This document shows, piece after piece, positions 5,681 to 63,213 of a stretch of DNA of 64,000 nt. Where the stretch lies: IMG/VR virus record IMGVR_UViG_3300031993_000004, positions 32,001 through 96,000 of that record; one strand, 5' to 3'. Origin of the DNA: a virus. Taxonomy: Duplodnaviria > Caudoviricetes. Below the pieces are notes generated by a model. The model did not search any database. It saw only the letters and a program-made list of their open reading frames with translations, and was not told the DNA's origin. Both the position numbers and the translations under genes were made by a program. The first letter of the stretch is position 1. Every line of letters starts with the position of its first letter.

Positions 5681-6438
5681 GTCAACTTGAACGAACAGAA
5701 GGGATCAAAGCCGAATATGCTGTAACCATAAAACGGCACAGATGTGCCGCATGCGGCATTGAGGTCCCATATGACAATAAACCTGAATGGTGGCCGGATA
5801 ATGAAATCCATCTGTTTGCACGACTCCCGCTGTGCTGGAATTGTGTGATGGAAATCTTTCATGACATCGAACTTCATGAATTGCAGATTCCGCCGTCCAT
5901 AGTTACAAGCACCAGAGCTGAGGCAGAGAGACTGTTCGATGATCAGGAAGACAGATTCGCGGAAATCTGTGTCAGATGCCGTCATATGAAAGTCATTGAC
6001 ACAGATGCTATGGAGGTTAAACCAAAGACATACATTGTTGACCTGTATACGAAAAATCGAGAAGGTATCAAAAAATACTTCGAAAGCGATGCTTATGAAA
6101 GGATGTATAAGGAAGGATACCGCGTCCCGGTTGTGTATCCAATGCCGTCACAAAGTTCGTATGAAAATAATCCGTTGAATTATTTCACTTCACCAACGAA
6201 CTTTGCTGCGGTCGTTGATGAAATCTTATGGGATCATGACCCGGTGTGTCAACATGACAGGGTGAGGATTCGCCAGTACAATACTGCAATTGGTAAACAT
6301 CTTGATGCTACTATTGCAACGAATAAGACAGTGAAGCTGTGTCCAGTCTTCTCGGGTTCTATGAATCCGAACAGTGCCGAGTTTGATATATACCGCGTAA
6401 TTGCGTTCACATTGGAGGTGCCTAATGAGACAAATTAA
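5677..6438 (+). CDS. hypothetical protein with CxxC pairs
   Basis: CAAC, CWNC and CVRC motifs; ATGA overlap. Confidence 0.7.
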   Translation: MSQLERTEGIKAEYAVTIKRHRCAACGIEVPYDNKPEWWPDNEIHLFARLPLCWNCVMEIFHDIELHELQIPPSIVTSTRAEAERLFDDQEDRFAEICVRCRHMKVIDTDAMEVKPKTYIVDLYTKNREGIKKYFESDAYERMYKEGYRVPVVYPMPSQSSYENNPLNYFTSPTNFAAVVDEILWDHDPVCQHDRVRIRQYNTAIGKHLDATIATNKTVKLCPVFSGSMNPNSAEFDIYRVIAFTLEVPNETN

Positions 6439-44622: not shown

Positions 44623-45454
44623 TGCCGAATTAATGCTGACTGCTATCCGTCAGGATGGTGAACGACTCCGGCACAAAAGATTTCATCTCAAATCTTTTGA
44701 TATGCCTGACATCAAAAGACAGTTTCCTGATGCGTACGAGACAAAGATCGGATACCAAAGACTGATCGAAGAAATCGGGCGGATCGAGTCGATCCGGGAT
44801 TTCGATGAACAGCATATTGACGATTATAAGAGAATCTCTGATACGGTCGATAAGATCGTGCGGGAACTGGATTTCACGGCCATTCAGACCGGTGATCACA
44901 TCCGAAATTTTGAATTTCCGGTATCTATTACCAGCGGCCTGGATGTGGATGACGAAGAATCTACACCCAATACGCTGACTGGTGTCATGTACCGGATCCG
45001 GCAAATCACATCCTGTAATTCTAGATCGGTATTTTATGCACCAGCCACATATTGTGGAATGGTGTTTGAATTTTCAATTCAGCATAAATACACAGCACTG
45101 AACGAACAGACCATTGTCAATTCCATATGGACAAGAGAAAAATATGACATCACTGGAATCAAGTTACTTATTTCAGCGATCCCGCTTGACAAAAGCGCAT
45201 TTCTTGAAGAGTGGTTGCCTGCACTGAATCTGGAGAAGAACTTGGGCTCAAAGGGCGCAAGGGTCATTTTTGCAATTGATCCGGAACGGGGAACCCTTGA
45301 ATACCCTGATAAGAACAGGCTTATCATTCCGGCGTGGAATTACTATAACCAGTCTGTTGCTGAAGGCCTGATTGACAACGCTGTAAAACATATCAGTGAG
45401 TCGTGCCTGGATGTTTTCTTTCCGAAGCCCGCATCTGAACCCGTCACCGAATAA
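44615..45454 (+). CDS. hypothetical protein
   Basis: AAGGAGG RBS. Confidence 0.7.
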   Translation: MHDAELMLTAIRQDGERLRHKRFHLKSFDMPDIKRQFPDAYETKIGYQRLIEEIGRIESIRDFDEQHIDDYKRISDTVDKIVRELDFTAIQTGDHIRNFEFPVSITSGLDVDDEESTPNTLTGVMYRIRQITSCNSRSVFYAPATYCGMVFEFSIQHKYTALNEQTIVNSIWTREKYDITGIKLLISAIPLDKSAFLEEWLPALNLEKNLGSKGARVIFAIDPERGTLEYPDKNRLIIPAWNYYNQSVAEGLIDNAVKHISESCLDVFFPKPASEPVTE

Positions 45455-45476
45455 AGAACCCCAAGGAGGAATCCAA

Positions 45477-46616
45477 ATGCCAGCCAAATACCTCAGACCA
45501 TCAAAACCGACATATTATCTAAGCTTTGCTGAAACCGCAGCAAGACGCTCCACTTGCTTGAAACGACGATATGGTGCGGTCATCGTTAAAGATGACCGCA
45601 TCATTTCAACCGGATACAATGGAGCGCCGCGTGGTCGGATAAATTGCGTTGAGATCGGGTGTCCGCGTTTGAATGTTCCAAACAATACAGAATACTCAAC
45701 ATGCCGGTCCGTCCATGCCGAAGCAAACGCAATGTTACACGCCGAATATACTGACATGATCGGATCGACATTATATCTGTATGGGTATGATGTCGTGAAA
45801 GACGAGCGTGTTAAAGATTGCGAACCATGTCCCATGTGTAAGCGCATGATCATTAATGCGCAAATCAAAGATGTCGTTGTATATGACAGAGATCTGAATG
45901 TCAAAACCTTTCATGTGAAGGACTGGACATTACCATGCAACGACGATTCCATTCCTGAGAAAGAACCGGAACTCTCCGATCCGGCGACGACGCCGTCCGA
46001 AGATACTCTGGACGTTGTTCTCATGAATAACGTTGAATCATCTAACGATGAAACAATACCATTTCTCGCGTCATCAAAACATCTTGAAGAGCTGATTGAG
46101 AAAGATCCCCAAACACAGATAACCGACGTGGATATATTGATGCGGTGTTACACGTTGTACCGCGATTCATTACGGTTTGCAATGTCAAATACGAACATGC
46201 CATTAGCATTGACAGAACTTTGTGTCTGCTTCTATGCTGGACACGGACATGTGGGCCTTGTAAATCAGAGTGCAATATCCAACTTCATGCTTGATTATGC
46301 GGGTAAAACGTTGCCTGCATATATTGATACATGTGTGCGAAATGCATTGTACAAATGCAGTCGATTCGAATGTGTCAATAACCGGTTGAGCTTTAGTTAT
46401 AATGGTAGATGGGGCGAAATCAGAAAGACAATTGATGCAACGGCTTACAAATATTTGCTTCCGGCAATTCGCGTCAGACGTGCGTTGTTACATGCAGGCT
46501 TCCTGGACGCAAATACCGAGAATCTATTGCTGAAGCTTCAGCGATATCTGAAGGAACGAAATGCGTTCCACGAAAGCACGCCGTGGGAACCCGGCATCCA
46601 ATATCCGATTTACTGA
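45477..46616 (+). CDS. dCMP deaminase with a C-terminal extension of unknown function
   Basis: RSTC, GAVIV, TGYNG, HAEANA and PCPMC motifs. Confidence 0.9.
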   Translation: MPAKYLRPSKPTYYLSFAETAARRSTCLKRRYGAVIVKDDRIISTGYNGAPRGRINCVEIGCPRLNVPNNTEYSTCRSVHAEANAMLHAEYTDMIGSTLYLYGYDVVKDERVKDCEPCPMCKRMIINAQIKDVVVYDRDLNVKTFHVKDWTLPCNDDSIPEKEPELSDPATTPSEDTLDVVLMNNVESSNDETIPFLASSKHLEELIEKDPQTQITDVDILMRCYTLYRDSLRFAMSNTNMPLALTELCVCFYAGHGHVGLVNQSAISNFMLDYAGKTLPAYIDTCVRNALYKCSRFECVNNRLSFSYNGRWGEIRKTIDATAYKYLLPAIRVRRALLHAGFLDANTENLLLKLQRYLKERNAFHESTPWEPGIQYPIY

Positions 46617-46654
46617 TACAAATACTTGCAGTGCCCGCCATATGGCGGGCATTG

Positions 46655-48690
46655 TAATGTAATGGTACGGTATGGAAGAGTTCGGTAGGGTCTTGCTCCG
46701 TTCTGTGTGGGTGGAGTGCGCTGTAGTTCTGTTCCGTGTAGGTGAAGTGCACTGTAGTCCTGTTCGGTGCAGGTAAAGTCTGGGATGGTTCTGGTAAGTT
46801 TAGCAATGTGATTGCACGGTTAGGCAAACTGCCGCATTGTCTAGCTACGTATTGTGACTGTGGTGCTGCGGTTTCGCGATGTAACCTGTGGTATCGTATG
46901 GGCATGGTATCGTTGAATTCAGTAATGATTCGTTCGGCGATGTGATTGTGATGCGGTGTACCATACCGTCGCGTGGAGGTAGTGTGGGGCAGAGTGGTGA
47001 CGTGCATCGTTATGATATGTGAAGCAACTGTAAAGAGTCGTGGAGTATCGCTATGTCAAGGCAAGGCACAGTATTCTCTCGTCATGTCTCGTGGCGTCAA
47101 TGTAGTGTAGTATAGTGTGCCGTGGCGTAAAGGTACAGCGGGGCTTTGTCAAGTAATGTAACGGTAAAGTGGCGCGGTGTAAGGTCACATCGCGTTTTGT
47201 CACGTTGCGTTTCGGTAAAGTAATGTATTGTCTTGTATCGTTGGGGTGAGGTCCGGTAAGGTGCGTTATCGTAAGGCGGTGTGGCGTACAGTAAAGGTAC
47301 TGTAATGTCGGGCGCTGTCACGTTACGGCAAAGTGAATTCTGGTATGGTGACGTAACGTAAATGTTTCGTAATGTTTCATTTAGCAACGTAATGGCATAG
47401 TGAAGTCTGGTATGGTGCCGTGATGTAATGGCAAAGTGCTGTGAAGTTATGTATGGTAAAGGTATGGTTGCGTCCGGTAAGGCGCAGTAGTATATTGTGA
47501 CGTGAATGTAAGGTAAAGTGGGGTATGCTTATGTGAAGCAGCGACCCAGTAATTCAGTCACGGTATGGCGACGTAACGTAGAGTATCGTTACGTGGGGTT
47601 ATGGCAAAGTGTTGGTTAGCTTCGTACAGCTCAGTCATGCAACAGTGAGGTTTGGCAGGGTTGGGTAAAGTCATGTAAAGGCAGGGTGAGGTGTGGCAGA
47701 ATAACGTGTGGCAATGTCACGTAACGGTGAAGAATGGTGCAGTGTTGAGTTGTTCCGTTAAGTGATGGCACGGTGTTGATTAGCTTCGTACAGCTCAGTC
47801 GCGCAACAGTGAAGTGAAGTAGCGCACGGTGGAGCTATGTAAAGGCAAGGCGGGGTGTGGCGTTGAACTGTTGAGCTCTGTCACTGTGAGGTGAGGCGTG
47901 GTAGCGAGCGTATGGCAATGCCTCGTAAGGTATTGGTATGGTATGGCTGTGTCTCGCAGAGTGATGGTTAAGTGATGTTGTGTTGAGTGTTGTATCGTTT
48001 GGCCATGGCATGGTGTCGTATCGTATGGTCACGGTCGGTTCTGTAAAGGCAAAGTACGTTGTCGTCTGGTGGAGTCTCGTGGTGTCAATGTAGTGTAGTG
48101 CTCAGCGATGTCAGGTTACGGTAACGGTACGGTGCTGTTTGGTAGAGCTTAGTTTAGTAAAGGTACAGCATGGTTATGTACTGATTGATTGAGTAATGCG
48201 CTGTAATGGCATGGTTCGGTCCGGTCCTCTCCTGTTATGTAATGGCATGGTGGAATGTTGTGACGTAATGCCACGTAAGGTCTTGCAACGCAATTGTACA
48301 GCATTGTCTGGTCTAGTGCGGCCAAGTGCTGTCTGGTCTCGGTATGGTATATTCCAGTCACGATCTTTGCGGTTAGGTGTTGTGTTGTAAAGGTGCGGCA
48401 GGGTTGCGCGAGGTGCCGTTGCGTAATGCTTCGTGAGGTAATTGTACAACATTGTCTAGTTTTGGTATGGCGTAGAGACGTTCCGTAACGGTGATGTGAT
48501 GTGTAGTTCCGTCGGGTATAGTAAAGGTATGGTTCTGCGAGGTGTTCTGAAGTATTGTGAGGTCAGGTCTAGGTAAGGTAATACATCGTAAGATGCAGAA
48601 CTGTCTGGGGATGGTACAGCACATCAAAGTTATGTACTGCAAAGTTGTGTCTCGGCGCAGCTCAGTGACGATCCGCTTTGTGAAGTAACC
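46655..48690 (+). repeat. NGY-NN pentamer array 1, putative guide-RNA array
   Basis: 5-nt periodic GT/GC with regular +1 phase shifts; G/T-skewed and non-coding. Confidence 0.85.
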
Positions 48691-48705
48691 TGAAGTTCAG
48701 ATTTG

Positions 48706-48743
48706 AAAAAAGATGGGGCGCATCACGCCCCATCTTTTTTCTT
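48706..48743 (+). terminator. intrinsic terminator closing array 1
   Basis: AAAAAAGATGGGGCG-CATCA-CGCCCCATCTTTTTT. Confidence 0.85.
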
Positions 48744-48744
48744 G

Positions 48745-48766
48745 AATTTCATATATATATCATTAT
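48745..48766 (+). promoter_or_regulatory. putative early promoter motif
   Basis: AATTTCATATATATATCATTAT. Confidence 0.6.
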
Positions 48767-48836
48767 AGGGAATGGGATTTCAAAATCTCATTAAGCTTTA
48801 TTCCGTACGGAATCGAATCAGAAAGTGAGGAGAAAA

Positions 48837-50255
48837 ATGAGCAACCCAATCAAAAAGCGCATTGAAAAAATTGCTGACACATGCGCAATGTCAGCAGAGC
48901 ACTATCCGTTGCTGGAAAACTGGTTTCAGTGCACAGCAGAAACTGCTCGCGAGATTGAACGCTCGCAAATCAAATCTCTCGAAGAATTTGACAGCGTGGC
49001 ACTGGCATTGTCGGCACTGAGATCGGACATTCCAATCATTGACCGGTCCACTTTGAATGAAGGTATCGATGCATTACGGTCTGCATGCGCCAGATATTCG
49101 TCAGCCACCGATGAATTCTCTCCGTTCAACGCGTTAATTGCGCAGTCGTGCAATACGTTGATCGTTGTGGGTGAAGAGATCATCGGAGCACTCACCAATC
49201 TCAAAATTCTTGAGATTGCACTCGGCATCGGCACAATGGTCCCACGTGATGCTCCGGAAGAAGACGTGGCGACAACGGAACAGGAAAAAATCGAACAGAT
49301 TTGTTCCGCACCGGTACCGGCTGAAATCACCGTCACTTTACCGGCATCAGATAAGACTATCGTTCTTTCACAATGTGATGCAACTATTCTCGAACCCATC
49401 TTTGCCCAGAGAGAACAGGAACTGCAGGAGCCGATTCCGGAAGAAGACGCGGCGGCAACGGAACAGGAAAAAATCGAACAGATTTGTTCTGCACCGGCTG
49501 ACGAATGTGAGGAAAACAGTGGCTATACTGTTTTCGGAATTCCGATCGAGCAAATCGGAGTATCCCAGGAAGAAATCAAACGTGTTACAACAGATATTCC
49601 AGATCCGCCGAAGCCTAAGAAGAAACCCAATGAACCACGTAAAGTGGGAGTGCTGGATGTCCCGACTGGGTTTACCGCGCTCAAAGTTCCGGGTTTCCCG
49701 GATGACAGATTCATGTTGTCTGTAGATAATCAAATCGTTGACCGTCGGACAGGGCGGAAGATCAAAGCAACTCTCAGACACGGGGTTGAATATGTCAAGC
49801 TTTTCCATCCGAGAGATGAACATGGGGAACAACAGTTTGTCGAGTTCCCGCTCGCGGATCTGATCTCAAAATCTACATCTACAGCGGCATTGCCGCTTCC
49901 GAAACCTGCAATGACGGAGGAAAAAGACGACACATTTGTGTACGTCGATTGGTTTCCAGGAATACCTGCTCGGAAATATAAGGTATATGCCTCAGGAAAG
50001 GTATACGATACTGTACACAAAGAGTTTATACCCTATGACAGGAAGAACGAGTCTATTCGACTTACAGATTCGGATATCGAATCCCGCACGATTGGGGTTC
50101 ATGCGGTTGTCAAGGCGCTGAAACGGCAGTCACTCGTATGGCAGGCTTTCCATAAAGAATACCGGAATCAATCCAGGGTGTACATCTCTTTCAGAGATGG
50201 AAACAGACAGAATTGTGCACTCGACAATCTGTATATCGGAAGATCTGCAAAATAA
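48837..50255 (+). CDS. protein with an internal repeat and a C-terminal NUMOD4/HNH-like (degenerate) domain
   Basis: PEED.A.TEQEKIEQICSAP twice; YKVYASGKV..LVWQAF..ISFRDGNRQNCALDNL. Confidence 0.7.
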   Translation: MSNPIKKRIEKIADTCAMSAEHYPLLENWFQCTAETAREIERSQIKSLEEFDSVALALSALRSDIPIIDRSTLNEGIDALRSACARYSSATDEFSPFNALIAQSCNTLIVVGEEIIGALTNLKILEIALGIGTMVPRDAPEEDVATTEQEKIEQICSAPVPAEITVTLPASDKTIVLSQCDATILEPIFAQREQELQEPIPEEDAAATEQEKIEQICSAPADECEENSGYTVFGIPIEQIGVSQEEIKRVTTDIPDPPKPKKKPNEPRKVGVLDVPTGFTALKVPGFPDDRFMLSVDNQIVDRRTGRKIKATLRHGVEYVKLFHPRDEHGEQQFVEFPLADLISKSTSTAALPLPKPAMTEEKDDTFVYVDWFPGIPARKYKVYASGKVYDTVHKEFIPYDRKNESIRLTDSDIESRTIGVHAVVKALKRQSLVWQAFHKEYRNQSRVYISFRDGNRQNCALDNLYIGRSAK

Positions 50256-50330: not shown

Positions 50331-51263
50331 ATGACAACTGCATATGAAAAATACGAAGATGTGACCGGAAACAAAGATGCTTTCATCAACCAGATAAAGT
50401 GTCATCCGGATTTCAGCGAATCATTAAATATGATCGTATGCGAACCGTCAATTTTCTATGCCGCGTCAGATGAACTTAAATCCGGCACTGTTTCGTTTGA
50501 GCATCAGTGCACGGGCCACATTCATCGCGCAACAGAGTTGGATCCCGCCAGAAAACGTGCAGCGTACGTGCTGTATCATAATAGCACGACAATGCCATAT
50601 TCAAAAGCCAAAGAACTTGCGGCTTTTGATATTGAGTCTGCGCTGGATCTGTCTTCTCTGTATCATATTGCGGAAAAGCTTGACGATAAGTTCTTCATAT
50701 TGGCTTATATGAAGCAATATGCTCGGAACGGAATCATTACGCACACGAAACCTCATATATTTGTCGCCGATATTGTGGAAGATACGGAGTATATGGACGT
50801 CACATACGCGGACGGCGTATTTTCTTCTCATCCTTCGGGTCACCACAAACGTGTATACCAACTATCCGACATTTCCGACATGCTGACTGTTGGAGATGAA
50901 ATCGTAATTGGTGATAATGCACGTGAGGAATTATCGAATGAACAGACGAAAGCCTGGTGTGATCGTCACGTAAATTGCTTGCTCCGATCTGACGGCATTC
51001 CGAATCTGGATTTGTACCATTTGTATTATTTGGATGCTGAGGTTGCTGAATATGTGGCAGAAAAGCTAAACGCAATTCCAAAAATGAGGATGCGTGTATG
51101 CAGACAATGTCATTCTTCATTCCTTCTTTCAGAATCGGAAATGCAATGGTATGCCGATAAGGGATTCAAACTCCCGAATCGATGCGGTGTATGCCGTTCT
51201 GACGAAAAACGAAGGAGACGAGAAGCAGAACGCGAAGAGTATTTCCGCGATCTGCTTTTCTGA
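50331..51263 (+). CDS. protein with a C-terminal zf-trcl-type zinc ribbon
   Basis: CRQCHSSFLLSESEMQWYADKGFKLPNRCGVCR. Confidence 0.75.
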   Translation: MTTAYEKYEDVTGNKDAFINQIKCHPDFSESLNMIVCEPSIFYAASDELKSGTVSFEHQCTGHIHRATELDPARKRAAYVLYHNSTTMPYSKAKELAAFDIESALDLSSLYHIAEKLDDKFFILAYMKQYARNGIITHTKPHIFVADIVEDTEYMDVTYADGVFSSHPSGHHKRVYQLSDISDMLTVGDEIVIGDNAREELSNEQTKAWCDRHVNCLLRSDGIPNLDLYHLYYLDAEVAEYVAEKLNAIPKMRMRVCRQCHSSFLLSESEMQWYADKGFKLPNRCGVCRSDEKRRRREAEREEYFRDLLF

Positions 51264-51305
51264 TATAATTGCCCATATGTACAACATGTATGTATGGGCA
51301 AAGAT

Positions 51306-51376
51306 GGGTTCGTAGTTTAATGGCAAAACAACGGTCTCCAAAACCGTTGATTGGGGTTCGATTCCCTGCGGACCTG
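51306..51376 (+). tRNA. tRNA-Trp(CCA)
   Basis: Cloverleaf; ACGGT-CTCCAAA-ACCGT. Confidence 0.9.
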
Positions 51377-51474
51377 TCAAAATAAAAGGGAGTTAAGTCG
51401 TGGCGGTTTGAATCTGCTTTTAAGGTTCGGAGTGTACCGCACCACGCTAGCCCAAAGTCCATAAACACTCATCT

Positions 51475-51558
51475 GCTGGTGTGGCGAAATCGGCAGACGC
51501 AGTAGACTCAAAATCTACCGGTGGCGATACCATGTGGGTTCGAGTCCCACCACCAGCA
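51475..51558 (+). tRNA. tRNA-Leu(CAA)
   Basis: GTAGA-CTCAAAA-TCTAC; long variable arm. Confidence 0.92.
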
Positions 51559-51559
51559 T

Positions 51560-51646
51560 TCATCACAGGAGATGAGAAGTTCCAGCACTTCTTCGTGGTC
51601 CCTCAATGAAACTGCGTAGTTTAAGGGTAAAACCCCCTGTGTTGAT
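51560..51646 (+). ncRNA. circularly permuted tRNA-like RNA (Y RNA/YrlA-like candidate)
   Basis: T-like arm, loop-closed acceptor stem and D arm, enclosed by a CACAGG/CCTGTG stem. Confidence 0.45.
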
Positions 51647-51706
51647 TCAAGGCGACATATCATGGTCTGGTGGTGGCAAAAGATGACACAGAAAAGGAGA
51701 AACGGT

Positions 51707-52066
51707 ATGGAACTGAAAAGACAAATGCCCGAGCAGCATGATGTTGTGACATTCTATATTAACAGCGATGAGTTTAACACCATGATGCTCAATCATACTG
51801 CAAACGAGTTTGTTGCGCAACGACTCAATGGCATTGCGATCAAAGAGAATGATCTGATTGTCATATATGTCGATCGCGGACAAACGCACAATCTGTCGGC
51901 AGAGCTGATGAAACAATTGATGAAATCCCTTGTCGATCAGCTTGGCTGCAAAGTTATATGCATGCCAGCTGTCGCACATCTCTCGGTTGAATCCAAAAAG
52001 GATTTCATTAATATGCTGAGAGAAACTATCATATATCTTGAAAAAGGCGATGACGAAAATAATTGA
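51707..52066 (+). CDS. hypothetical protein
   Basis: AAAGGAG RBS. Confidence 0.65.
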   Translation: MELKRQMPEQHDVVTFYINSDEFNTMMLNHTANEFVAQRLNGIAIKENDLIVIYVDRGQTHNLSAELMKQLMKSLVDQLGCKVICMPAVAHLSVESKKDFINMLRETIIYLEKGDDENN

Positions 52067-52204
52067 GAGCGATTGGCGATAGTGCGTGAATCGCGGTGGT
52101 ATGTTGTGTGGAACTAATTTCCAGGGGAGTTTCGATTCCAGACGAGGATCCTGGAGAAATAGAATGTCGAGGCCGTAAGATCTAGAAGCACATCATATTG
52201 TCAT

Positions 52205-52347
52205 CATTACCTCGTATGCAAGTGGTCAAAAGCAGTCTACCTTTGGTAGGTAGAGAAGACTCTCCACCCGGGATATCCGGCCGGGTATCGGGTTAAAACT
52301 CGCAATCGCGAGGGGGAGTACGCGGGTTCGAATCCCGCCGGGTAATG
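52205..52347 (+). ncRNA. tRNA-like RNA with a branched, greatly expanded variable region
   Basis: CATTACC/GGTAATG closing stem; D-like arm; GCGGG-TTCGAAT-CCCGC T arm. Confidence 0.55.
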
Positions 52348-52367
52348 TTGCTCAATTCTATATAGGC

Positions 52368-52440
52368 CGGGGTGTAGCGCAGTTGGTAGCGCGCCTGCTT
52401 TGGGAGCAGGATGCCGCAGGTTCGAATCCTGTCACTCCGA
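52368..52440 (+). tRNA. tRNA-Pro(TGG)
   Basis: CCTGC-TTTGGGA-GCAGG. Confidence 0.93.
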
Positions 52441-52448
52441 TTTCCCAT

Positions 52449-52532
52449 GCTACTGTGGCGAAATTGGCAGACGCAAGAGACTTAAAATCTCTCGGTGGAT
52501 ACATCTTGTGGGTTCAAGTCCCATCGGTAGCA
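52449..52532 (+). tRNA. tRNA-Leu(TAA)
   Basis: AGAGA-CTTAAAA-TCTCT. Confidence 0.9.
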
Positions 52533-52587
52533 TTCAAAGGCACTTACAGCAATTCTCAAATAATGATGAATGAACGATGTGCCTTGA

Positions 52588-52665
52588 GGTGAAGTAGCTC
52601 AGGTGGTAGAGCGTCGGGAGTGTAACTCCTGCAGGGATGTTAGGTTCGAGCCCTAACCTTCACCA
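52588..52665 (+). tRNA. atypical tRNA, probably Tyr(GTA)
   Basis: GGTGAAG/CTTCACC acceptor; CGGGA-GTGTAAC-TCCTG; short variable arm. Confidence 0.6.
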
Positions 52666-52782
52666 TCCACGTCCTGTCGGAACCTGTGTACGCAGGCCAA
52701 TTCCACAAATAAAAGGATATACGGCGCCAAATGACCGTGACGGTCATGTATATCCCTCTCGGCAGGCTCCGTGGTGCCATAT

Positions 52783-52860
52783 GCCAGTGTAGCTCAGTTG
52801 GTCGTTAAGAGCAGCTCCTTCATACGGAGAAGGTCGGTGGTTCGAATCCACTCATTGGCA
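52783..52860 (+). tRNA. tRNA with CAT anticodon (Met or Ile2)
   Basis: CTCC-TTCATAC-GGAG; enlarged D loop. Confidence 0.8.
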
Positions 52861-52884
52861 TTCATTTTTTCATCAATTGAGTAG

Positions 52885-53450
52885 TAAACAAAAGCCCATT
52901 CAAAGGATGGGTAAGCTTTACCAAGGAAATCGTTGCAGTGCACAAGGATAAGAGTATTGCGATATGCTGCATTCCTAGTATCGGACGAGTACGAAACCTT
53001 GGTTGTGTCATTGGCGCTATTAAGAAGCGTCTTCCCGAAAAGAGCCTCAACGTAAGATCCAGTAGAAGAATCCATAGTCTGGTGCATATCTCGGTCTGTG
53101 GATTGCGATGTAACTGGTGGGAAAAGGATGATACGGGAATCTCCTGAGTAGTGGCGAGCGAAAGGGATCCACAAGAGAGCATGGGGACACGATCCGAACA
53201 CGTGCTTGTGAGTGGTCAAAATCGCCCTGGAAACGGGCATGGGCAGTTATGAAAGATGATGAAAAGATGGCGACGGTTGTGTGCAGTCCAGACCATTTGG
53301 TTGGCGTGGGATACTAAGGAATCACCAGACTGCATATGAACCTAGATTGTTGTGTAAGCGGGAACGCACTGGCCACCTAGCGAGCCAGGTATACCGGAGG
53401 ATTCCGGCGAACATAATTGAAGTGAGACGCTCTATAATCTACACAACAAT
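52885..53450 (+). ncRNA. large structured ncRNA candidate
   Basis: About 570 nt between tRNAs with many helices, no credible ORF and a 23S rRNA-like motif. Confidence 0.5.
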
Positions 53451-53451
53451 T

Positions 53452-53527
53452 GGGGCTGGGCAGGAACACACGTGGCCAGGGTGGCGTTACGACGTTGCCT
53501 TACGGGTTCGAATCCCGTCACAGCTCT
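53452..53527 (+). ncRNA. anticodon-less tRNA-like element
   Basis: GGGGCTG/CAGCTCT acceptor with G3:U70; canonical T arm; UACG-capped stem. Confidence 0.45.
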
Positions 53528-53530
53528 TCT

Positions 53531-53603
53531 GACTCGGTAGCCAAGAGGCAAGGCAAGGGAGTGCAAATCCTAGATGCGTCGTGTTCGAATCCGACCCGAG
53601 TCT
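53531..53603 (+). tRNA. tRNA-Cys(GCA), slightly atypical
   Basis: GACTCGG/CCGAGTC acceptor; loop GTGCAAA; U73. Confidence 0.75.
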
Positions 53604-53610
53604 TTTTTTT

Positions 53611-53686
53611 GGGGTATTAGCTCAGACTGGATCAGAGCACCTCCCTTCTAAGGAGGGTGTCGTGGGTTCGAATCCTACATACCCCA
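53611..53686 (+). tRNA. tRNA-Arg(TCT)
   Basis: CCTCC-CTTCTAA-GGAGG. Confidence 0.9.
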
Positions 53687-53698
53687 TTCAACATTCCG

Positions 53699-59306: not shown

Positions 59307-60092
59307 TGTCTAGTTTGGGTAAAGTGCTGCGAGGCGCAGTATGGTCGTGGTGTTGCACGGTCCAGTATGACATTGTTTTGTCGAGCAACTGTATAGCGGT
59401 GTATTGTCAGGTTTTGGTACTGTGGCGTTAGGTTCAGCACGGTCTCGTCTGGTACTGGTTTAGTATTGCCGAGCAGCGCAACGTATAATGCAGTGACGGT
59501 GTAGTCATGTCTGATGTGGTCGAGTCAAGTCAAGGTTAAGCTGCGTTCGGTGCAGGTGCCGTTCAGTTGTGGTGTAGTCGAGGTTTGGTAAAGTACTGTA
59601 CAGCTAAGTATCGTCAATGTGTTGTCAAGAACGGTTCCGTGATGTTAAGGTTAGGATACGTGCCGTATGATACCGTGAAGGTATGGTGCAATGAGCTCAA
59701 GTGTTGTTATGACACGTGCATTTCTGTAAAGGTTAAGCTCTGTGACGCATTGCATCTCGTGATTGTAAAGGAAAGTGTCATGCAGAACAGTGCAGCGTAG
59801 TTTCTGTGCTGTTATATCTTGTCCAGCGTGGTTAAGGTCGGGTACGGTCCCGCATTGTTCTGTTTGGTAATGTAATAGCGTAGTACAGTTAGGTTGTGTT
59901 ACGTAGAGCAACTGCATAGTGATCTGATGTAGGGTCGTGTCACGGTCGGTGATGTAATGTACAGCATAGGTATAGTTCCGTATAGTATCGTTCAGCCATG
60001 TTCAGTTGCGGTAGAGTAAAGTTGAGCGACGTGTGGTAGGGTAACGGTGGAGTGTTGTGTTGTCACGTGAAGTCAAGTAATAGTAATGGTAA
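59307..60092 (+). repeat. NGY-NN pentamer array 2, upstream of the RAMP gene
   Basis: For example ggtaa agtgc tgcga ggcgc agtat; 5-nt period with phase shifts. Confidence 0.85.
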
Positions 60093-60140: not shown

Positions 60141-60163
60141 AAATCTCATATATATATCATTAT
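60141..60163 (+). promoter_or_regulatory. putative early promoter of the RAMP gene
   Basis: AAATCTCATATATATATCATTAT. Confidence 0.6.
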
Positions 60164-60268: not shown

Positions 60269-61033
60269 ATGGCAAACAAGAAAGACGCTGCAGAAGCAGC
60301 AGCAACAACCACCACGGTCGAGAAGAAGGCACCTGCGAAAAAGAAGGCAAAATCTGATGGGCCTCAAAAGTATTACATGACGACAGTTGAGGTAACTTTC
60401 ACGAACGAGCTTCTGGCCACCAACAGCGCGGATCCGGATATCTATTCCGCGTATCTCGCGTCACTCGCAAGTGACGAAGACCGCAAGGCGGAACTCGAGC
60501 GTCTCGGCCTCGCAGAGGTTGATGAGAAGGGTATGACGGTTTTCCTCAGAAACAAGGAAAACCCGATGATCCCTCAGCTCAAGGCATATACATGGCTCGG
60601 GTTCCTCAAGGCCCGCAGCCGTGCACAGGCAAAGATCGACGGAAATCCGATCGTTGGAATGACCGCATATATCAAAGAAATCGATGACCGCATTGCGGTA
60701 TCTCCGAAATTCATTGATCTGGAGCTCCCGGAAGGAGCAGCTGTTGACACTCTGCAGCGTCCGCTTCGTGCGCAAACCATGCAGGGTGACCGTGTCGCTC
60801 TCGCAAAGTCTGAGACTGTTCCGGCTGGCACAAAGTGCCGCTTTACCTTCAGAACCGAAACTCTTGAAGGTATGAAGCTTGTTGAAGCCTGCCTCAGATA
60901 CGGCGCTATCCATGGTACAGGCCAGTGGAGGAATGCCGGTTACGGCACCTTCACATATAAGATCATCGATAGATGGTCGGAGGTCGAAGAGCCGATCGTT
61001 CTGTCTGAAGAGGACTTCCCTGTCCGCGCATAA
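60269..61033 (+). CDS. solo Cas7-group RAMP-fold RNA-binding protein (Vipr-like)
   Basis: N-terminal strand VEVTFTNELLAT; LGFLK helix; RPLRAQT..ALAKSETVPAGT; C-terminal Gly-rich loop GTGQWRNAGYGTF typical of RAMPs. Confidence 0.8.
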   Translation: MANKKDAAEAAATTTTVEKKAPAKKKAKSDGPQKYYMTTVEVTFTNELLATNSADPDIYSAYLASLASDEDRKAELERLGLAEVDEKGMTVFLRNKENPMIPQLKAYTWLGFLKARSRAQAKIDGNPIVGMTAYIKEIDDRIAVSPKFIDLELPEGAAVDTLQRPLRAQTMQGDRVALAKSETVPAGTKCRFTFRTETLEGMKLVEACLRYGAIHGTGQWRNAGYGTFTYKIIDRWSEVEEPIVLSEEDFPVRA

Positions 61034-61048
61034 TACTCACAAGATCGA

Positions 61049-61082
61049 AATTGGCGGTGTCTATATGGCACCGCCAATTTTC
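61049..61082 (+). terminator. hairpin between the RAMP gene and array 3 (terminator or processing site)
   Basis: AAATTGGCGGTGTC-TATAT-GGCACCGCCAATTT. Confidence 0.6.
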
Positions 61083-61104: not shown

Positions 61105-61415
61105 AGTAACGGCACAGTTTCGCGGGGTCAAGTGCAGTCCAGTCGTGGTATGGCATTGTTTACTAATGTCTCGTGGAGTTTTGGCATGGTGTGGTTTCGC
61201 TGTGTGGCGTGCTGTCAAGGCAGGGTATTGTACTATGACGCATTGTCGCGTATTGGTTACGTAATGTGAGACATGGTTATGTGTCGTAAAGGCATTGTGG
61301 AGTACGGTAATGTTGTGCTTAGTCATGTTATGGTATAGCAGCGGTTGGTGAGGTGTTGCTGTGTGGCGTTTCGGTATTGTGATGTTCCGTGTCGTGGAGC
61401 AGAGTAATTGTGACA
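61105..61415 (+). repeat. NGY-NN pentamer array 3: eight units of 36 or 41 nt
   Basis: Units start GGY at 61111, 61147, 61183, 61219, 61255, 61291, 61332 and 61373. Confidence 0.88.
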
Positions 61416-61677: not shown

Positions 61678-61751
61678 GGGCCTCTAGCTCAGACGGTTAG
61701 AGCAGTGGACTCATAATCCATTGGTCCAGGGTTCGAGTCCCTGGGGGCCCA
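61678..61751 (+). tRNA. tRNA with CAT anticodon (likely Ile2)
   Basis: GGGCCTC acceptor; GTGGA-CTCATAA-TCCAT. Confidence 0.88.
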
Positions 61752-61794
61752 TCATCTATATAATTAGCGAAGGGGAGTACAACATAATATTTGA

Positions 61795-61880
61795 GGAGAG
61801 GTGTCCGAGTGGCTTAAGGAGCCAGTCTTGAAAACTGGTGATACGGAAACGTACCGTGGGTTCAAATCCCACTCTCTCCG
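61795..61880 (+). tRNA. tRNA-Ser(TGA)
   Basis: CCAGT-CTTGAAA-ACTGG; long variable arm; G73. Confidence 0.93.
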
Positions 61881-62376
61881 TCAAACTCTAAGACGTCTGA
61901 TTTCGCAGACGCGTGCTTCCTTTTCGGCTTTAAACCGCCTGGCATGCCGATTCATGACCAGGTATAAAAAACAGTCCGTGTGTATCGAAACCGGCCAATG
62001 ATCTTAGGCCGGATCGCGCCCGCCGCCTGCAGATCGCGGCATTGAGCTCTTATCTCCGTGAGAGTTGGCGCTACTATGTGAGAGACACGGACTACCGCTG
62101 GGGTTTACATAAATGCGGTTTACCCAGCACCAGCTTATTGCCAGAGGCAACAGCTGCCGGCTTTGCTGTTGTCTTTGCTCAGATAAGGGCCTAGTATTCA
62201 GGAATTTACAAAGCGGGTTATGCTTATTGAGGTTTCAGAGAGCGCCGCAATGGATGCGCTTGAAGATGTCGTTCATCTCTAAATCCAATGTGTTCATGTT
62301 GCGGAAGCACAACAACAACCACAACGACCACAGATGCTCGGCTTCCCCGCTAAAGAATATGAAAAACGCTCAATTT

Positions 62377-62448
62377 GCACGTGTCGTACAGTGGGCAGTA
62401 TACCAGCCTTCCAAGCTGGGGATGAGGGTTCAATTCCCTTCACGTGCT
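62377..62448 (+). tRNA. tRNA-Gly(TCC)
   Basis: CCAGC-CTTCCAA-GCTGG; U73. Confidence 0.88.
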
Positions 62449-62722
62449 TCGACGATGATGGTTTGATTTCTGACATTTACGGGTTATGTATTAACCGGTC
62501 GATGTATTGACAGATACATATGGCAGAATGATACTATCACCGTCGCACTCCGTATAAACCGTAGGGGTAGAGGCACCCACCCCTGCGGTTTTGCTCTTTA
62601 CTGTAAATTCTTGCAGTTTGTCCATTCTGCAAGGATCTGCATGAAGATACCTCCAGACGCGCAGGAGTTCTCACGCTAGCTAAGAGGACTCCTGCACTGC
62701 GTCGCCTGAGAAAGGAGAAACT

Positions 62723-62989
62723 ATGAATGATGATCTCAAAAAATGCTTGACAAGCGTTGCAGCATTGATCGCAATATTCATTCTCTGCTCTGCGCTCGGA
62801 TCATGTTGCACAGAGCAGGATATACGTGATTACACGTATATCTATGTCGATGGACAACAATACATGACATCAGATATTGTTGACATAAGTTATATCCCTC
62901 TCCGCTACGGCAATGACGCCGTGACATTCAAGCTCAAAGACGGAACTGTTATACGCACACAATCTAATGATTATACTCTCAGCAATTAA
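62723..62989 (+). CDS. small membrane protein/lipoprotein, YDYIVIDG family
   Basis: GAAAGGAG RBS; TM helix plus YTYIYVDGQQYMTSDIVDI. Confidence 0.65.
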   Translation: MNDDLKKCLTSVAALIAIFILCSALGSCCTEQDIRDYTYIYVDGQQYMTSDIVDISYIPLRYGNDAVTFKLKDGTVIRTQSNDYTLSN

Positions 62990-63001
62990 GCGTTTCCATA
63001 T

Positions 63002-63073
63002 TGGAGTATGGCCAAGCGGCAAGGCATCAGACTTTGACTCTGACACGCGCTGGTTCGAATCCAGCTACTCCAA
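63002..63073 (+). tRNA. tRNA-Gln(TTG)
   Basis: TCAGA-CTTTGAC-TCTGA; U1-A72. Confidence 0.9.
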
Positions 63074-63213
63074 CTCAATATCTTTTATCTCGGCACCAAA
63101 TGATTTTTCAACACTCGTTTTGGTGCGCAGTCTTCACTTTCTATACTGATTTCATTTGATTTCAGTTGTCCACGGTTTCGACATCTTCCGTGGACATTCT
63201 TTTTTAAGAAATA

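What the first reader, a model, noticed from the sequence alone, without database searches (positions are those of the whole stretch)
61111..61408. Higher-order grammar: arrays are concatemers of 5n+1-nt units
Array 3 parses into eight units. Each opens with GGY (GGYA in seven), runs 6-7 pentamers and closes with one hexamer: ggcac agttt cgcgg ggtca agtgc agtcc agtcgt | ggtat ggcat tgttt actaa tgtct cgtgg agtttt | ggcat ggtgt ggttt cgctg tgtgg cgtgc tgtcaa | and so on, with lengths 36,36,36,36,36,41,41,36. The same +1 phase-shift junctions (GTAAAGGY, GTAATGGY, GTAACGGY) recur in arrays 1 and 2 with 31-46-nt units. Inference: the hexamer marks guide boundaries or processing sites, acting like a CRISPR repeat without repeat identity, and unit length sets filament length.
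Basis: partly seen in the sequence, partly recalled or inferred. Interest (0 to 1): 0.85.

Follow-up and report, generated by a model that had tools for sequence, protein, structure and literature searches.

The report
Staggered VIPR guide arrays, jumbo phage
The odd "five-letter steps with an extra letter every 30-50 bases" are real: they mark off about 85 short guide RNAs of a recently described CRISPR-like phage system (VIPR), and several of these guides spell out genes of dormant viruses living in Ruminococcus gut bacteria.

Summary
Observation confirmed. All three + strand arrays (46648-48700, 59315-60088, 61109-61408) are runs of N-G-Y-N-N pentamers. Phase slips are almost always +1 (81 of 85) and evenly spaced: 82% of units hold 6-10 pentamers, against 25% for random placement.

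This is a VIPR system (2026 bioRxiv preprints). The 254-aa ORF between arrays 2 and 3 has a Cas7/RAMP fold. The 5n+1 grammar matches what the preprint's Fig. S18 legend calls "staggered vrRNA arrays" overlapping by 1 nt, which it did not confirm by RNA-seq. This scan has already filed the same architecture on other phage genomes.

Added here: natural targets. The unit at 47245-47296 matches 26 of 27 contiguous bases of a prophage ssDNA-binding gene (PF10991), including one in Ruminococcus flavefaciens FD-1. Four window guides and four guides of the closest relative hit this prophage family; none hits control DNA. Matches start at a unit's first pentamer and stop before its hexamer, so the junctions are guide boundaries. 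The third base of each variable triplet also matches, unlike the published two-base, one-skip code.

Verdict: a new member of a known kind.

The parts
46648..48700 (+). Array 1: about 55 head-to-tail guide units of N-G-Y-N-N pentamers, 11.5 kb from the vipr gene
   Evidence: HMM segmentation: steps 5 x344, 6 x53, 4 x1, 9 x1. The stretch is non-coding and has no Rfam family.
46700..46779 (+). Tandem duplication inside array 1 with period 31 (= 6x5+1), about 2.6 copies at 83% identity; looks like unit-sized duplication
   Evidence: Tandem Repeats Finder. The units called here are 26 and 31 nt.
47245..47296 (+). Guide unit 17 of array 1. Its nine variable triplets read GAG CCG AAG GCG ATC AAG GGT GGC ACA. 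The junction pentamer (AAA) and the shared G follow.
   Evidence: 26/27 contiguous identity to the prophage SSB gene in L142 and in Ruminococcus flavefaciens FD-1 (L227). The two-base pattern is exact in 47 IMG/VR contigs and 33 bacterial genomes. The target gene is PF10991.
48705..48741 (+). Strong intrinsic terminator closing array 1
   Evidence: 16-bp stem with 8 GC pairs, followed by a T run.
59315..60088 (+). Array 2: about 23 units, starting directly after the stop codon of the upstream gene and ending before the vipr promoter-like motif
   Evidence: steps 5 x126, 6 x21, 4 x1, 9 x1.
59649..59680 (+). Guide unit 11 of array 2 (five triplets, TAG TAC GCC ATG ACC)
   Evidence: 15/15 contiguous match to provirus G006 at position 6292, E about 2e-3. 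This is a weaker hit.
60010..60046 (+). Guide unit 21 of array 2 (AGA AAA TGA GAC GTG AGG). A guide matching in 13 of 14 two-base positions sits in the closest relative's array.
   Evidence: 17/18 to provirus G006 at 51107, inside a 74-aa ORF. The L001 guide at 9250-9290 matches the same site 20/21. The similarity between the two guides is seen.
60147..60163 (+). Promoter-like motif CATATATATATCATTAT upstream of vipr, also present upstream of the ORF after array 1
   Evidence: 7 matches in the window against 0.5 expected, with exact copies at 48750 and 60147.
60269..61033 (+). vipr gene: 254-aa RAMP/Cas7-like protein (P0001) with a Lys/Ala-rich disordered N-terminus and the G-loop GTGQWRNAGYG
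   Evidence: No Pfam or PHROG family. AlphaFold pLDDT 79. Best PDB folds are type VII Cas7 and Csm3, E 1.8e-8. The G-loop aligns to that of SUSP1 Vipr. More than 300 homologues, all unannotated.
61051..61081 (+). Hairpin plus T run between vipr and array 3
   Evidence: Read from the sequence. The terminator scan did not list it.
61109..61408 (+). Array 3 (the finding): eight units, 61111-61146, 61147-61182, 61183-61218, 61219-61254, 61255-61290, 61291-61331, 61332-61372 and 61373-61408
   Evidence: RNA folding is no better than shuffles (z -0.44), as expected for a single-stranded guide. No significant target was found for these eight units in the DNA held.

Best explanation
The three arrays are multi-guide RNA genes of a VIPR system (Viral Interference Programmable Repeat) in a 277.6-kb jumbo phage.

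Proposed mechanism:
- The 254-aa Cas7-like Vipr protein coats the transcript with one protomer per pentamer. It grips the constant G-Y and presents the variable bases.
- Each unit is one guide. It opens with a canonical GGY(A) pentamer, runs 5-9 further pentamers, and ends with a pentamer that carries one extra base.
- The extra base moves the next G-Y out of register. A filament growing along one unit therefore cannot continue into the next, and a new one starts on the following GGY.
- The G just before that GGY is in phase with the old unit and is also the first G of the new unit. This fits the preprint's '1-nt overlap'.
- The junction thus does the work of a CRISPR repeat without a conserved repeat, a 3' tail, a ribozyme or a per-guide promoter.
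- The guides are directed at temperate phages of Ruminococcus and other Clostridia, above all their DUF2800-SSB-PolA replication module. By analogy with characterised VIPRs, the effect would be to silence a resident or competing prophage.

Status of each step:
- Shown here: the grammar, its conservation, the RAMP fold, the target matches and where they stop.
- Inferred from the preprints: RNA binding with one protomer per repeat, DNA binding and silencing.
- Inferred by me: register break as the stop signal.
- Unknown: whether the RNA is physically cut at the junctions.
For: Grammar and its statistics.

Conservation: the arrays lie only on the vipr strand and only at three places in the genome. 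The same grammar appears in 36 distinct arrays next to Vipr homologues of 37-72% identity: steps 5 x2918, 6 x515, 4 x18; unit CV 0.33 against 0.87 for shuffles.

Protein: RAMP fold. G-loop W-R is conserved with SUSP1 Vipr, whose G1-binding Asp is Gln here (with residue roles from 10.64898/2026.04.26.720927). That fits the loss of the first G in internal pentamers.

Published description: 10.64898/2026.04.26.720920 reports YNNNG-type repeats and staggered arrays.

Evolution: substitutions between arrays of phages with identical Vipr are twice as frequent at phases 0 and 2 (7.3%, 7.5%) as at phases 1 and 3 (3.2%, 3.5%); phase 4 is 5.0%. The arrays are 90-92% identical where flanking genes are 95-98.5%. 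There is a 31-nt whole-unit indel.

Targets:
- A 26/27 match to the prophage SSB gene.
- 8 of 107 guides of this phage and L001 give E<0.01 hits in the prophage family, against 0,0,0,1 in four triplet-order shuffles and 0 in 4.3 Mb of control positions.
- With the published two-base reading, only a 1-nt skip is enriched (8 against 2.9, P 0.003). Skips of 0 and 2 are at chance.
- The discovery guide was left out of the tests.

Boundaries: flank identities and window starts; guide-definition comparison.
Against: - There is no RNA evidence at all: expression, strand, ends and processing are untested.
- Only 4 of 70 window guides have a significant target, and none of the eight units of array 3 does.
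- The target family was found with one pattern scan, and the further tests use DNA chosen because of that hit. The discovery guide was excluded from them.
- Dropping the junction pentamer from the guide was decided after seeing the first hit.
- One 8-pentamer two-base match runs across a junction (units 20/21, P about 0.08). In some SSB variants the previous junction pentamer also matches (TG = Trp codon). Read-through of a junction is therefore not excluded.
- Sequence similarity to the founding Vipr is confined to the G-loop (hhalign probability 18%).
- No conserved accessory (vap) gene was found.
- I could read only the legend of Fig. S18, not the figure.
Confidence: 0.8

Rival explanations
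1. It is a VIPR array, but the +1 bases are not guide boundaries. They would be periodic register corrections or hinges within one long filament, for example to relieve helical strain. Guides would then be read in any window of the array, including across junctions.
For: An in-frame exact two-base match of 8 pentamers crosses the unit 20/21 junction (P about 0.08). The SSB match extends one pentamer upstream across a junction in the Trp-containing variants. The average step of 36/7 = 5.14 nt is close to half a DNA helical turn (my arithmetic).
Against: In 13 significant hits, triplets flanking the units match at 31-41% against about 91% inside. Four of 5 independent unit-agnostic hits start at pentamer 0 of a unit. 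Junction-straddling guide definitions are at chance. Junctions carry their own signature, GG and A. Whole-unit indels and duplications of 31 nt occur.
Confidence: 0.1
2. The periodicity acts at the DNA level: a bent or protein-wrapped DNA region, a replication or packaging element, or a decoy for a host DNA-binding protein. It would not be a guide RNA.
For: No RNA data exist. The roughly 5.14-bp mean period is near half a helical repeat. A genomic language-model survey found that period-10 A-tract arrays do exist in prokaryotic intergenic DNA (10.64898/2026.10.21.760802).
Against: The signal is strictly strand-specific and always on the strand of an adjacent RAMP gene, in 36 arrays of diverse phages. 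Array 1 ends in a strong + strand terminator. The variable positions spell 15-27-nt stretches of foreign prophage genes, which a structural DNA element would have no reason to do. The variable positions evolve more slowly than the 'free' positions.
Confidence: 0.04
3. The target matches are chance or compositional, so the boundary argument collapses. The arrays would still be VIPR arrays, but with unknown targets.
For: The first hit came from scanning a very large collection with 16 specified bases, and about 9 unrelated hits were also returned. A 9-pentamer two-base match alone would be expected about 0.5 times by chance (my estimate). Three two-base-only exact hits were not E<0.01 hits under the contiguous reading, and the one at unit 47328 matches none of its six third bases by my reading, so they may be chance.
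Against: 26/27 contiguous identity has E about 1e-8 in the DNA searched. Eight guides hit against 0-1 for shuffles, and there are no hits in twice as much control DNA. Guides of L001, L002 and G001, none of which is the discovery guide, hit the same prophage family, several in the same DUF2800-SSB module. Similar guides in this phage and L001 match one and the same site.
Confidence: 0.05

Closest known systems
VIPR systems with 'staggered vrRNA arrays' and YNNNG-type repeats (bioRxiv 10.64898/2026.04.26.720920, methods and Fig. S17/S18 legends)
   Same: Stand-alone RAMP gene in a phage. Flanking same-strand arrays of pentanucleotide repeats with a constant G-Y and variable positions. [quoted passage not shown] Targets lie in other mobile elements.
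   Different: The preprint text gives no unit-length statistics, junction consensus or targets for this architecture, and says it was not confirmed by sRNA-seq. This locus is very large (about 85 units, one array 11.5 kb from vipr). The third variable base also matches the targets. The Vipr protein has a Lys/Ala-rich N-terminal extension. The VIPR type (I-VII) could not be assigned.
Type II VIPR of Escherichia phage SUSP1 (vipr = KT454805 28474-29061, minus strand)
   Same: One small RAMP protein. Guides made of G-G-Y/N-N pentamers in a single phase. Anti-mobile-element targets. G-loop W-R motif.
   Different: SUSP1 vrRNAs are separate transcripts of about 100 nt: 9-16 in-phase GGYNN repeats, each followed by a conserved pseudoknot tail of about 40 nt. 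Here there is no tail and no per-guide promoter, internal pentamers keep only G-Y, and guides are 6-10 pentamers set off by a +1 slip. A vap gene follows vipr in SUSP1; none is evident here.
Class 1 CRISPR arrays with Cas7 backbone filaments (types I, III, VII)
   Same: RAMP fold (best structural matches). One protomer per fixed number of guide bases with periodically flipped bases. Arrays hold many guides against foreign DNA.
   Different: There are no repeat-spacer units, no cas1/cas2/cas6 and no conserved repeat. The period is 5 nt, not 6. Guide information is interleaved with the protein-binding bases rather than separated from them.
TRAP and other ring proteins that read spaced triplets (Bacillus trp leader: 11 G/UAG triplets with 2-3-nt spacers; from my own knowledge)
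   Same: A 5-6-nt periodic triplet pattern on RNA, read by an oligomer.
   Different: TRAP sites are a single regulatory site of 11 repeats in a leader, not kilobase arrays. No TRAP-like gene is present. The variable bases here encode foreign sequences. I considered this early and dropped it.

Membership tests
VIPR system | Vipr protein: minimal single-RRM RAMP with a glycine-rich loop and thumb | tested here: met
   AlphaFold model pLDDT 79.4. The top 50 PDB matches are all Cas7/Csm3/Cmr-type RAMPs, best E 1.8e-8. The G-loop GTGQWRNAGYG aligns to GVGDWRP-RFG of SUSP1 Vipr. Weak phmmer hits fall on the G-loops of Csm4 and Cas7.
VIPR system | Tandem pentanucleotide repeats with a constant GGY (or the related YNNNG/NNNGG/NNNNG) and hypervariable positions | tested here: met
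   Phase 1 is G 92% and phase 2 is Y 95%; the other three phases are variable. This is the YNNNG form named in the preprint's methods.
VIPR system | Arrays in long intergenic regions next to vipr, on the same strand, in a phage | tested here: met
   Arrays 2 and 3 flank the gene and array 1 is 11.5 kb away; all are on the + strand. The genome is a 277.6-kb virus record. The arrangement is conserved in 36 related arrays.
VIPR system | Variable positions specify natural targets in competing mobile elements | tested here: met
   Guides match proviruses with a DUF2800-SSB-PolA module. 8 of 107 guides hit against 0-1 for shuffles, and none hits control DNA.
VIPR system | Noncontiguous code: two guide bases per repeat, one target base skipped | tested here: inconclusive
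   Read as NN, only the 1-nt skip is enriched. But the 'skipped' base equals the guide's next base in 81 of 93 triplets of the significant hits. At sites chosen mainly on NN it is 8/9, 5/7, 5/6, 7/7 and 6/7, against 0-3 of 7 at chance-level sites. Sequence alone cannot say whether that base pairs.
VIPR system | vrRNA is expressed and co-purifies with Vipr; the RNP binds dsDNA and silences transcription | not testable with these tools
There is no experimental access.
VIPR system | Accessory vap gene beside vipr | tested here: inconclusive
   No conserved neighbour was found across relatives. The ORF after array 1 (48825-50255) has a weak HNH-like C-terminus (PHROG 959, E 2e-5) and is syntenic only in the closest relative.
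VIPR type II (SUSP1-like) | Each vrRNA ends in a conserved structured 3' tail (pseudoknot) | tested here: not met
   Units abut directly. There is no conserved 40-nt element between them. Folding of array 3 is no better than shuffles. SUSP1's own arrays show the tail.
VIPR staggered array (Fig. S18) | Successive vrRNAs in frames offset by one base, sharing a 1-nt overlap | tested here: met
   81 of 85 slips are +1. The base before each new GGY is G in 74% of junctions, lies exactly 5 nt after the last G of the old frame, and is also G1 of the new unit. I matched this to the legend only; the figure was not available.
CRISPR-Cas | Repeat-spacer array plus adaptation genes (cas1/cas2) | tested here: not met
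   There are no direct repeats beyond the pentamer pattern and no CRISPR family in Rfam. The vipr ORF and three neighbouring ORFs give no Cas family in Pfam or PHROGs.

The most novel reading that the evidence does not exclude
In this YNNNG-type, tail-less VIPR clade each pentamer may carry three target bases read contiguously (G-Y + NNN, no skipped base), not the published two-plus-skip. A single extra nucleotide would then be the whole punctuation that splits one long transcript into dozens of independent guides, with no repeat, tail, ribozyme or dedicated nuclease. The near-perfect copies of target DNA with G-Y inserted after every third base (26/27, 20/21) would also imply either selection on all three bases or a templated way of making new guides.
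Probability: 0.35. Interest if true: 0.75.

Novelty: new member of a known kind. Interest (0 to 1): 0.45.

Why it matters
VIPR was described only in 2026. Its 'staggered' arrays are the one architecture the authors did not confirm experimentally.

This locus supplies what is needed to test them:
- A clean eight-unit array (61111-61408).
- A junction consensus.
- Unit-length rules.
- Concrete natural targets, including a 27-bp site in the SSB gene of a prophage of the culturable Ruminococcus flavefaciens FD-1.

The targets suggest that rumen and gut jumbo phages carry 50-100 guides against resident temperate phages of their hosts, and they point to Ruminococcus as the likely host.

If the third base is really read, the code differs from the published one. 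That would matter for anyone predicting VIPR targets or building compact multiplexed guide arrays.

Tried and rejected
- **TRAP-like or RNA-sponge reading, and a DNA-curvature reading.** I considered both first. I dropped them once the RAMP fold and the VIPR papers were in hand.
- **Rfam.** Only tRNAs were found.
- **Targets in the phage's own genome and in relatives.** I searched 80 Vipr-bearing loci and three complete relatives (G001-G003). There was no enrichment under skips 0, 1 or 2, and no contiguous hits.
- **Shared guides between this phage and relatives.** None beyond chance, except the array 2 unit at 60010, which closely resembles an L001 guide.
- **Exact IMG/VR scans.** Three other long guides, with 22, 20 and 18 specified bases, gave no hits.
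- **Convergence test on 10-kb target loci.** With short guides and 1 mismatch allowed, it was swamped by chance hits replicated across homologous loci.
- **Sliding two-base windows that ignore units.** 11 runs against 7.9 expected; not significant.
- **Three two-base-only exact, in-frame hits.** These were unit 47328 to an AAA_23/SbcC-like gene, unit 47395 to a 229-aa ORF, and array 3 unit 61147 to a 212-aa ORF. They were enriched as a set (P 0.004). None was an E<0.01 hit under the contiguous reading, so I treat them as unproven.
- **Reading the variable triplets as ORFs.** Stop-codon depletion was weak: 19 against 29 +/- 4.
- **Codon phasing of targets.** Only about half of the significant hits are in frame, so codon phasing is not a rule here.
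- **Supplementary files of the preprint.** Not held.
- **DNA for the two other contigs carrying P0001.** Not available.

Full report
**What is in the sequence.** The region 61111-61408 and two larger stretches (46648-48700, 59315-60088) are non-coding. They consist of pentamers with G at one fixed position (92%) followed by a pyrimidine (T 75%, C 20%); the other three positions vary. A phase-tracking HMM with a background state finds exactly these three arrays in the whole 277,583-bp genome, all on the + strand. Steps between successive G positions are 5 nt (520 times), 6 nt (81), 4 nt (2) and 9 nt (2).

**Is the grammar more than chance?** '5n+1' is automatic once the slips are +1. The informative facts are these:
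- Slips are +1 in 81 of 85 cases.
- Spacing is regular. The CV of unit size is 0.30, against 0.89 for shuffled steps. 82% of units have 6-10 pentamers against 25%. No unit exceeds 11 pentamers, where random placement gives a longest unit of about 31.
- The junction has a modest signature, G-T-n-A-h-G|G-Y-A. GTAANGGY is four times over-represented, and 23 of its 28 copies lie in the arrays.
- The base before each new unit's G-Y is G in 74% of junctions against 25% elsewhere. It lies 5 nt after the last G of the old frame. So it is both in phase with the old unit and the first G of a canonical GGY in the new one.

**What it is.** The 254-aa ORF between arrays 2 and 3 has no Pfam or PHROG family. 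It has more than 300 unannotated homologues in phage contigs, some of 260-295 kb. Its AlphaFold model (pLDDT 79) matches Cas7/Csm3-type RAMPs (E 1.8e-8).

A literature search then found the 2026 preprints that define Viral Interference Programmable Repeat systems:
- A minimal RAMP (Vipr) polymerises on an RNA of GGY/NN pentamers, one protomer per repeat.
- The RNP recognises dsDNA through the NN bases, with one target base skipped.
- The methods name alternative repeats (YNNNG, NNNGG, NNNNG).
- The Fig. [quoted passage not shown] That architecture was not among those confirmed by sRNA-seq.

The junction anatomy above fits that legend. The founding SUSP1 locus, fetched for comparison, differs: it has in-phase GGTNN runs, each followed by a conserved tail. 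Its Vipr aligns to P0001 only over the G-loop, GVGDWRP against GTGQWRN. The structure paper assigns the Asp to the first G of GGY. It is Gln here, and invariant in the clade, which fits the loss of that G in internal pentamers. This last point is inference.

**Conservation.** Loci around 83 homologues (37-72% identity) contain 36 distinct arrays, always on the vipr strand. Their grammar is the same: 5-nt steps 2918, 6-nt 515, 4-nt 18; unit CV 0.33 against 0.87.

Four contigs encode an identical Vipr (L115-L118). Their arrays are 90-92% identical where neighbouring genes are 95-98.5%. Substitutions are about twice as frequent at phase 0 and at the Y position (almost all T<->C) as at the G and the first variable base. 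One array has a clean 31-nt insertion of a unit. Array 1 itself holds a 31-nt-period tandem duplication. Units therefore behave as evolutionary modules.

**Targets.** Searches of the phage's own genome, Vipr-bearing loci and three related large phages found nothing. Exact two-base-plus-skip patterns of three long guides gave no IMG/VR hits.

The inner eight pentamers of the unit at 47245-47296 gave 56 hits. Of these, 47 lie in frame in one conserved gene (..EPKAINGGTPKYSVSLII..). That gene is the Enc34-type ssDNA-binding protein PF10991, in a DUF2800-SSB-PolA module of 49-58-kb records that IMG/VR mostly classes as proviruses.

The same pattern hits 33 prophages in bacterial genomes. Many are in Ruminococcus (three R. 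flavefaciens assemblies, R. callidus, several Ruminococcus sp.), and most of the rest are in other Oscillospiraceae and Clostridia. There are also 17 scattered hits, which is about the chance number.

I then fetched five complete target genomes and tested the other guides:
- With the discovery guide excluded, three guides had exact in-frame two-base matches, against 0.34 expected (P 0.004). There were none in the phage's own genome, its relatives or the Vipr loci.
- The closest relative (L001) also had three, against 0.21 expected.
- Only the 1-nt skip was enriched.

**A three-base reading.** Take the two variable bases plus the next base (phase 0) as a contiguous triplet. The unit at 47245 then reads GAG CCG AAG GCG ATC AAG GGT GGC ACA. 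That is identical at 26 of 27 positions to the SSB gene in L142 and in R. flavefaciens FD-1.

Under this reading:
- Significant hits (E<0.01) in the prophage family were 4 of 70 window guides, 4 of 37 L001 guides, 2 of L002 and 2 of G001.
- Four shuffles of 107 guides gave 0,0,0,1 hits.
- Twice as much control DNA gave none.
- The array 2 unit at 60010 and a closely similar L001 guide match the same site in provirus G006, at 17/18 and 20/21.
- Third-base identity in the hits is 81/93.

That last figure is partly circular, because the hits were selected on all bases. However, sites that qualify on the two-base criterion split cleanly. One group has 5-8 of 6-9 third bases matching, and the other has 0-3 of 7. 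I conclude that the third base is very probably target-derived. Whether it pairs is open. Only about half of the hits are in the codon frame, and both strands are hit, so codon phasing is not a rule here.

**Do the junctions bound the guides?**
- In the 13 significant hits, identity is about 91% inside the unit (its own junction pentamer excluded). In the flanks it is 12/39 and 16/39 in the two triplets upstream, 13/39 in the unit's own junction pentamer and 13/39 in the next unit's first triplet, all close to chance.
- A unit-agnostic scan of all 6-triplet windows (at least 17/18 matching) found five independent matches. Four begin at pentamer 0 of a unit. The fifth is at the expected chance rate.
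- Junction-straddling guide definitions are not enriched.

Counter-observations: one 8-pentamer two-base match crosses a junction (P about 0.08), and in Trp-containing SSB variants the preceding junction pentamer also matches.

**Mechanism proposed.** One transcript per array, with a strong terminator after array 1, would be coated by Vipr. Each unit nucleates on its GGY(A) start and extends for 6-10 protomers. The extra base at the hexamer displaces the next G-Y from the protomer pockets, so the filament ends there. Exposed junction bases may then be trimmed by host nucleases, or the RNA may stay as beads on a string. The resulting 15-27-bp specificities are aimed at resident temperate phages of the host. 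By analogy with characterised VIPRs, the aim would be to silence their replication module. The grammar, the fold, the targets and the match boundaries are shown here. Binding, silencing and one protomer per repeat come from the preprints. The register-break stop is my inference.

**Limits.**
- No target was found for array 3 itself.
- Only a minority of guides is explained.
- Some analysis choices were made after the first hit.
- The preprint's figures and supplements were not available.
- The VIPR type could not be assigned.

**Verdict.** The kind of system and the staggered architecture are already described, and this scan has already found them on other phage genomes. New here are the quantified grammar, the natural targets, the likely Ruminococcus host, and evidence for three target-matching bases per pentamer.

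Noticed in passing
window 48750-48766 and 60147-60163 (also 53705, 34176, 43254, 55127): A conserved AT-rich motif, CATATATATATCATTAT, sits just upstream of vipr, of the ORF after array 1 and of a few other genes. There are 7 matches against 0.5 expected. It is probably a phage promoter class. None lies directly upstream of an array, so how the arrays are transcribed is unclear.
   Followed up: partly
window 60269-60375 (residues 1-35 of P0001): The Vipr homologues of the jumbo-phage clade (238-299 aa) carry a disordered Lys/Ala/Thr-rich N-terminal extension. It is absent from the homologues of about 200 aa in 30-80-kb phages. It might add unspecific nucleic-acid affinity.
   Followed up: no
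window 48825-50255: The 476-aa ORF right after array 1 has a weak HNH-endonuclease-like C-terminus (PHROG 959 E 2e-5; Pfam HNH_3 below cut-off). The array-then-ORF synteny is kept in the closest relative L001 only. It is a possible accessory (vap-like) gene or a homing endonuclease.
   Followed up: partly
window 47606-47650 and 47771-47815: Two near-identical stretches of about 40 nt (..ttagcttcgtacagctcagtc.(t/c)gcaacagtga.gt..) lie inside array 1, 165 nt apart. This looks like a duplicated pair of units in which the G-Y pattern is partly degenerate (AGC/CAG pentamers).
   Followed up: no
window 51305-53687 and 61678-63074: Two tRNA clusters (12 tRNAs by Rfam, 11 by ARAGORN). The second starts 270 nt after array 3.
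   Followed up: no
window 45396-46616: A dCMP deaminase domain (residues 38-163) is fused to a C-terminal region of about 240 aa with no family. Array 1 begins directly after a hairpin that follows this gene.
   Followed up: no
L184:11064-11288 (provirus G006): The site matched both by the window guide at 60010 and by the similar L001 guide lies inside a 74-aa ORF of the provirus (..AIKKMSREELQAF..), out of the codon frame. The function of this small protein is unknown.
   Followed up: partly
G003 / L049 and other Vipr-bearing loci: About half of the loci that encode a Vipr homologue showed no array with the HMM trained on this phage. Their repeats may follow another consensus or lie outside the fetched flanks.
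   Followed up: no
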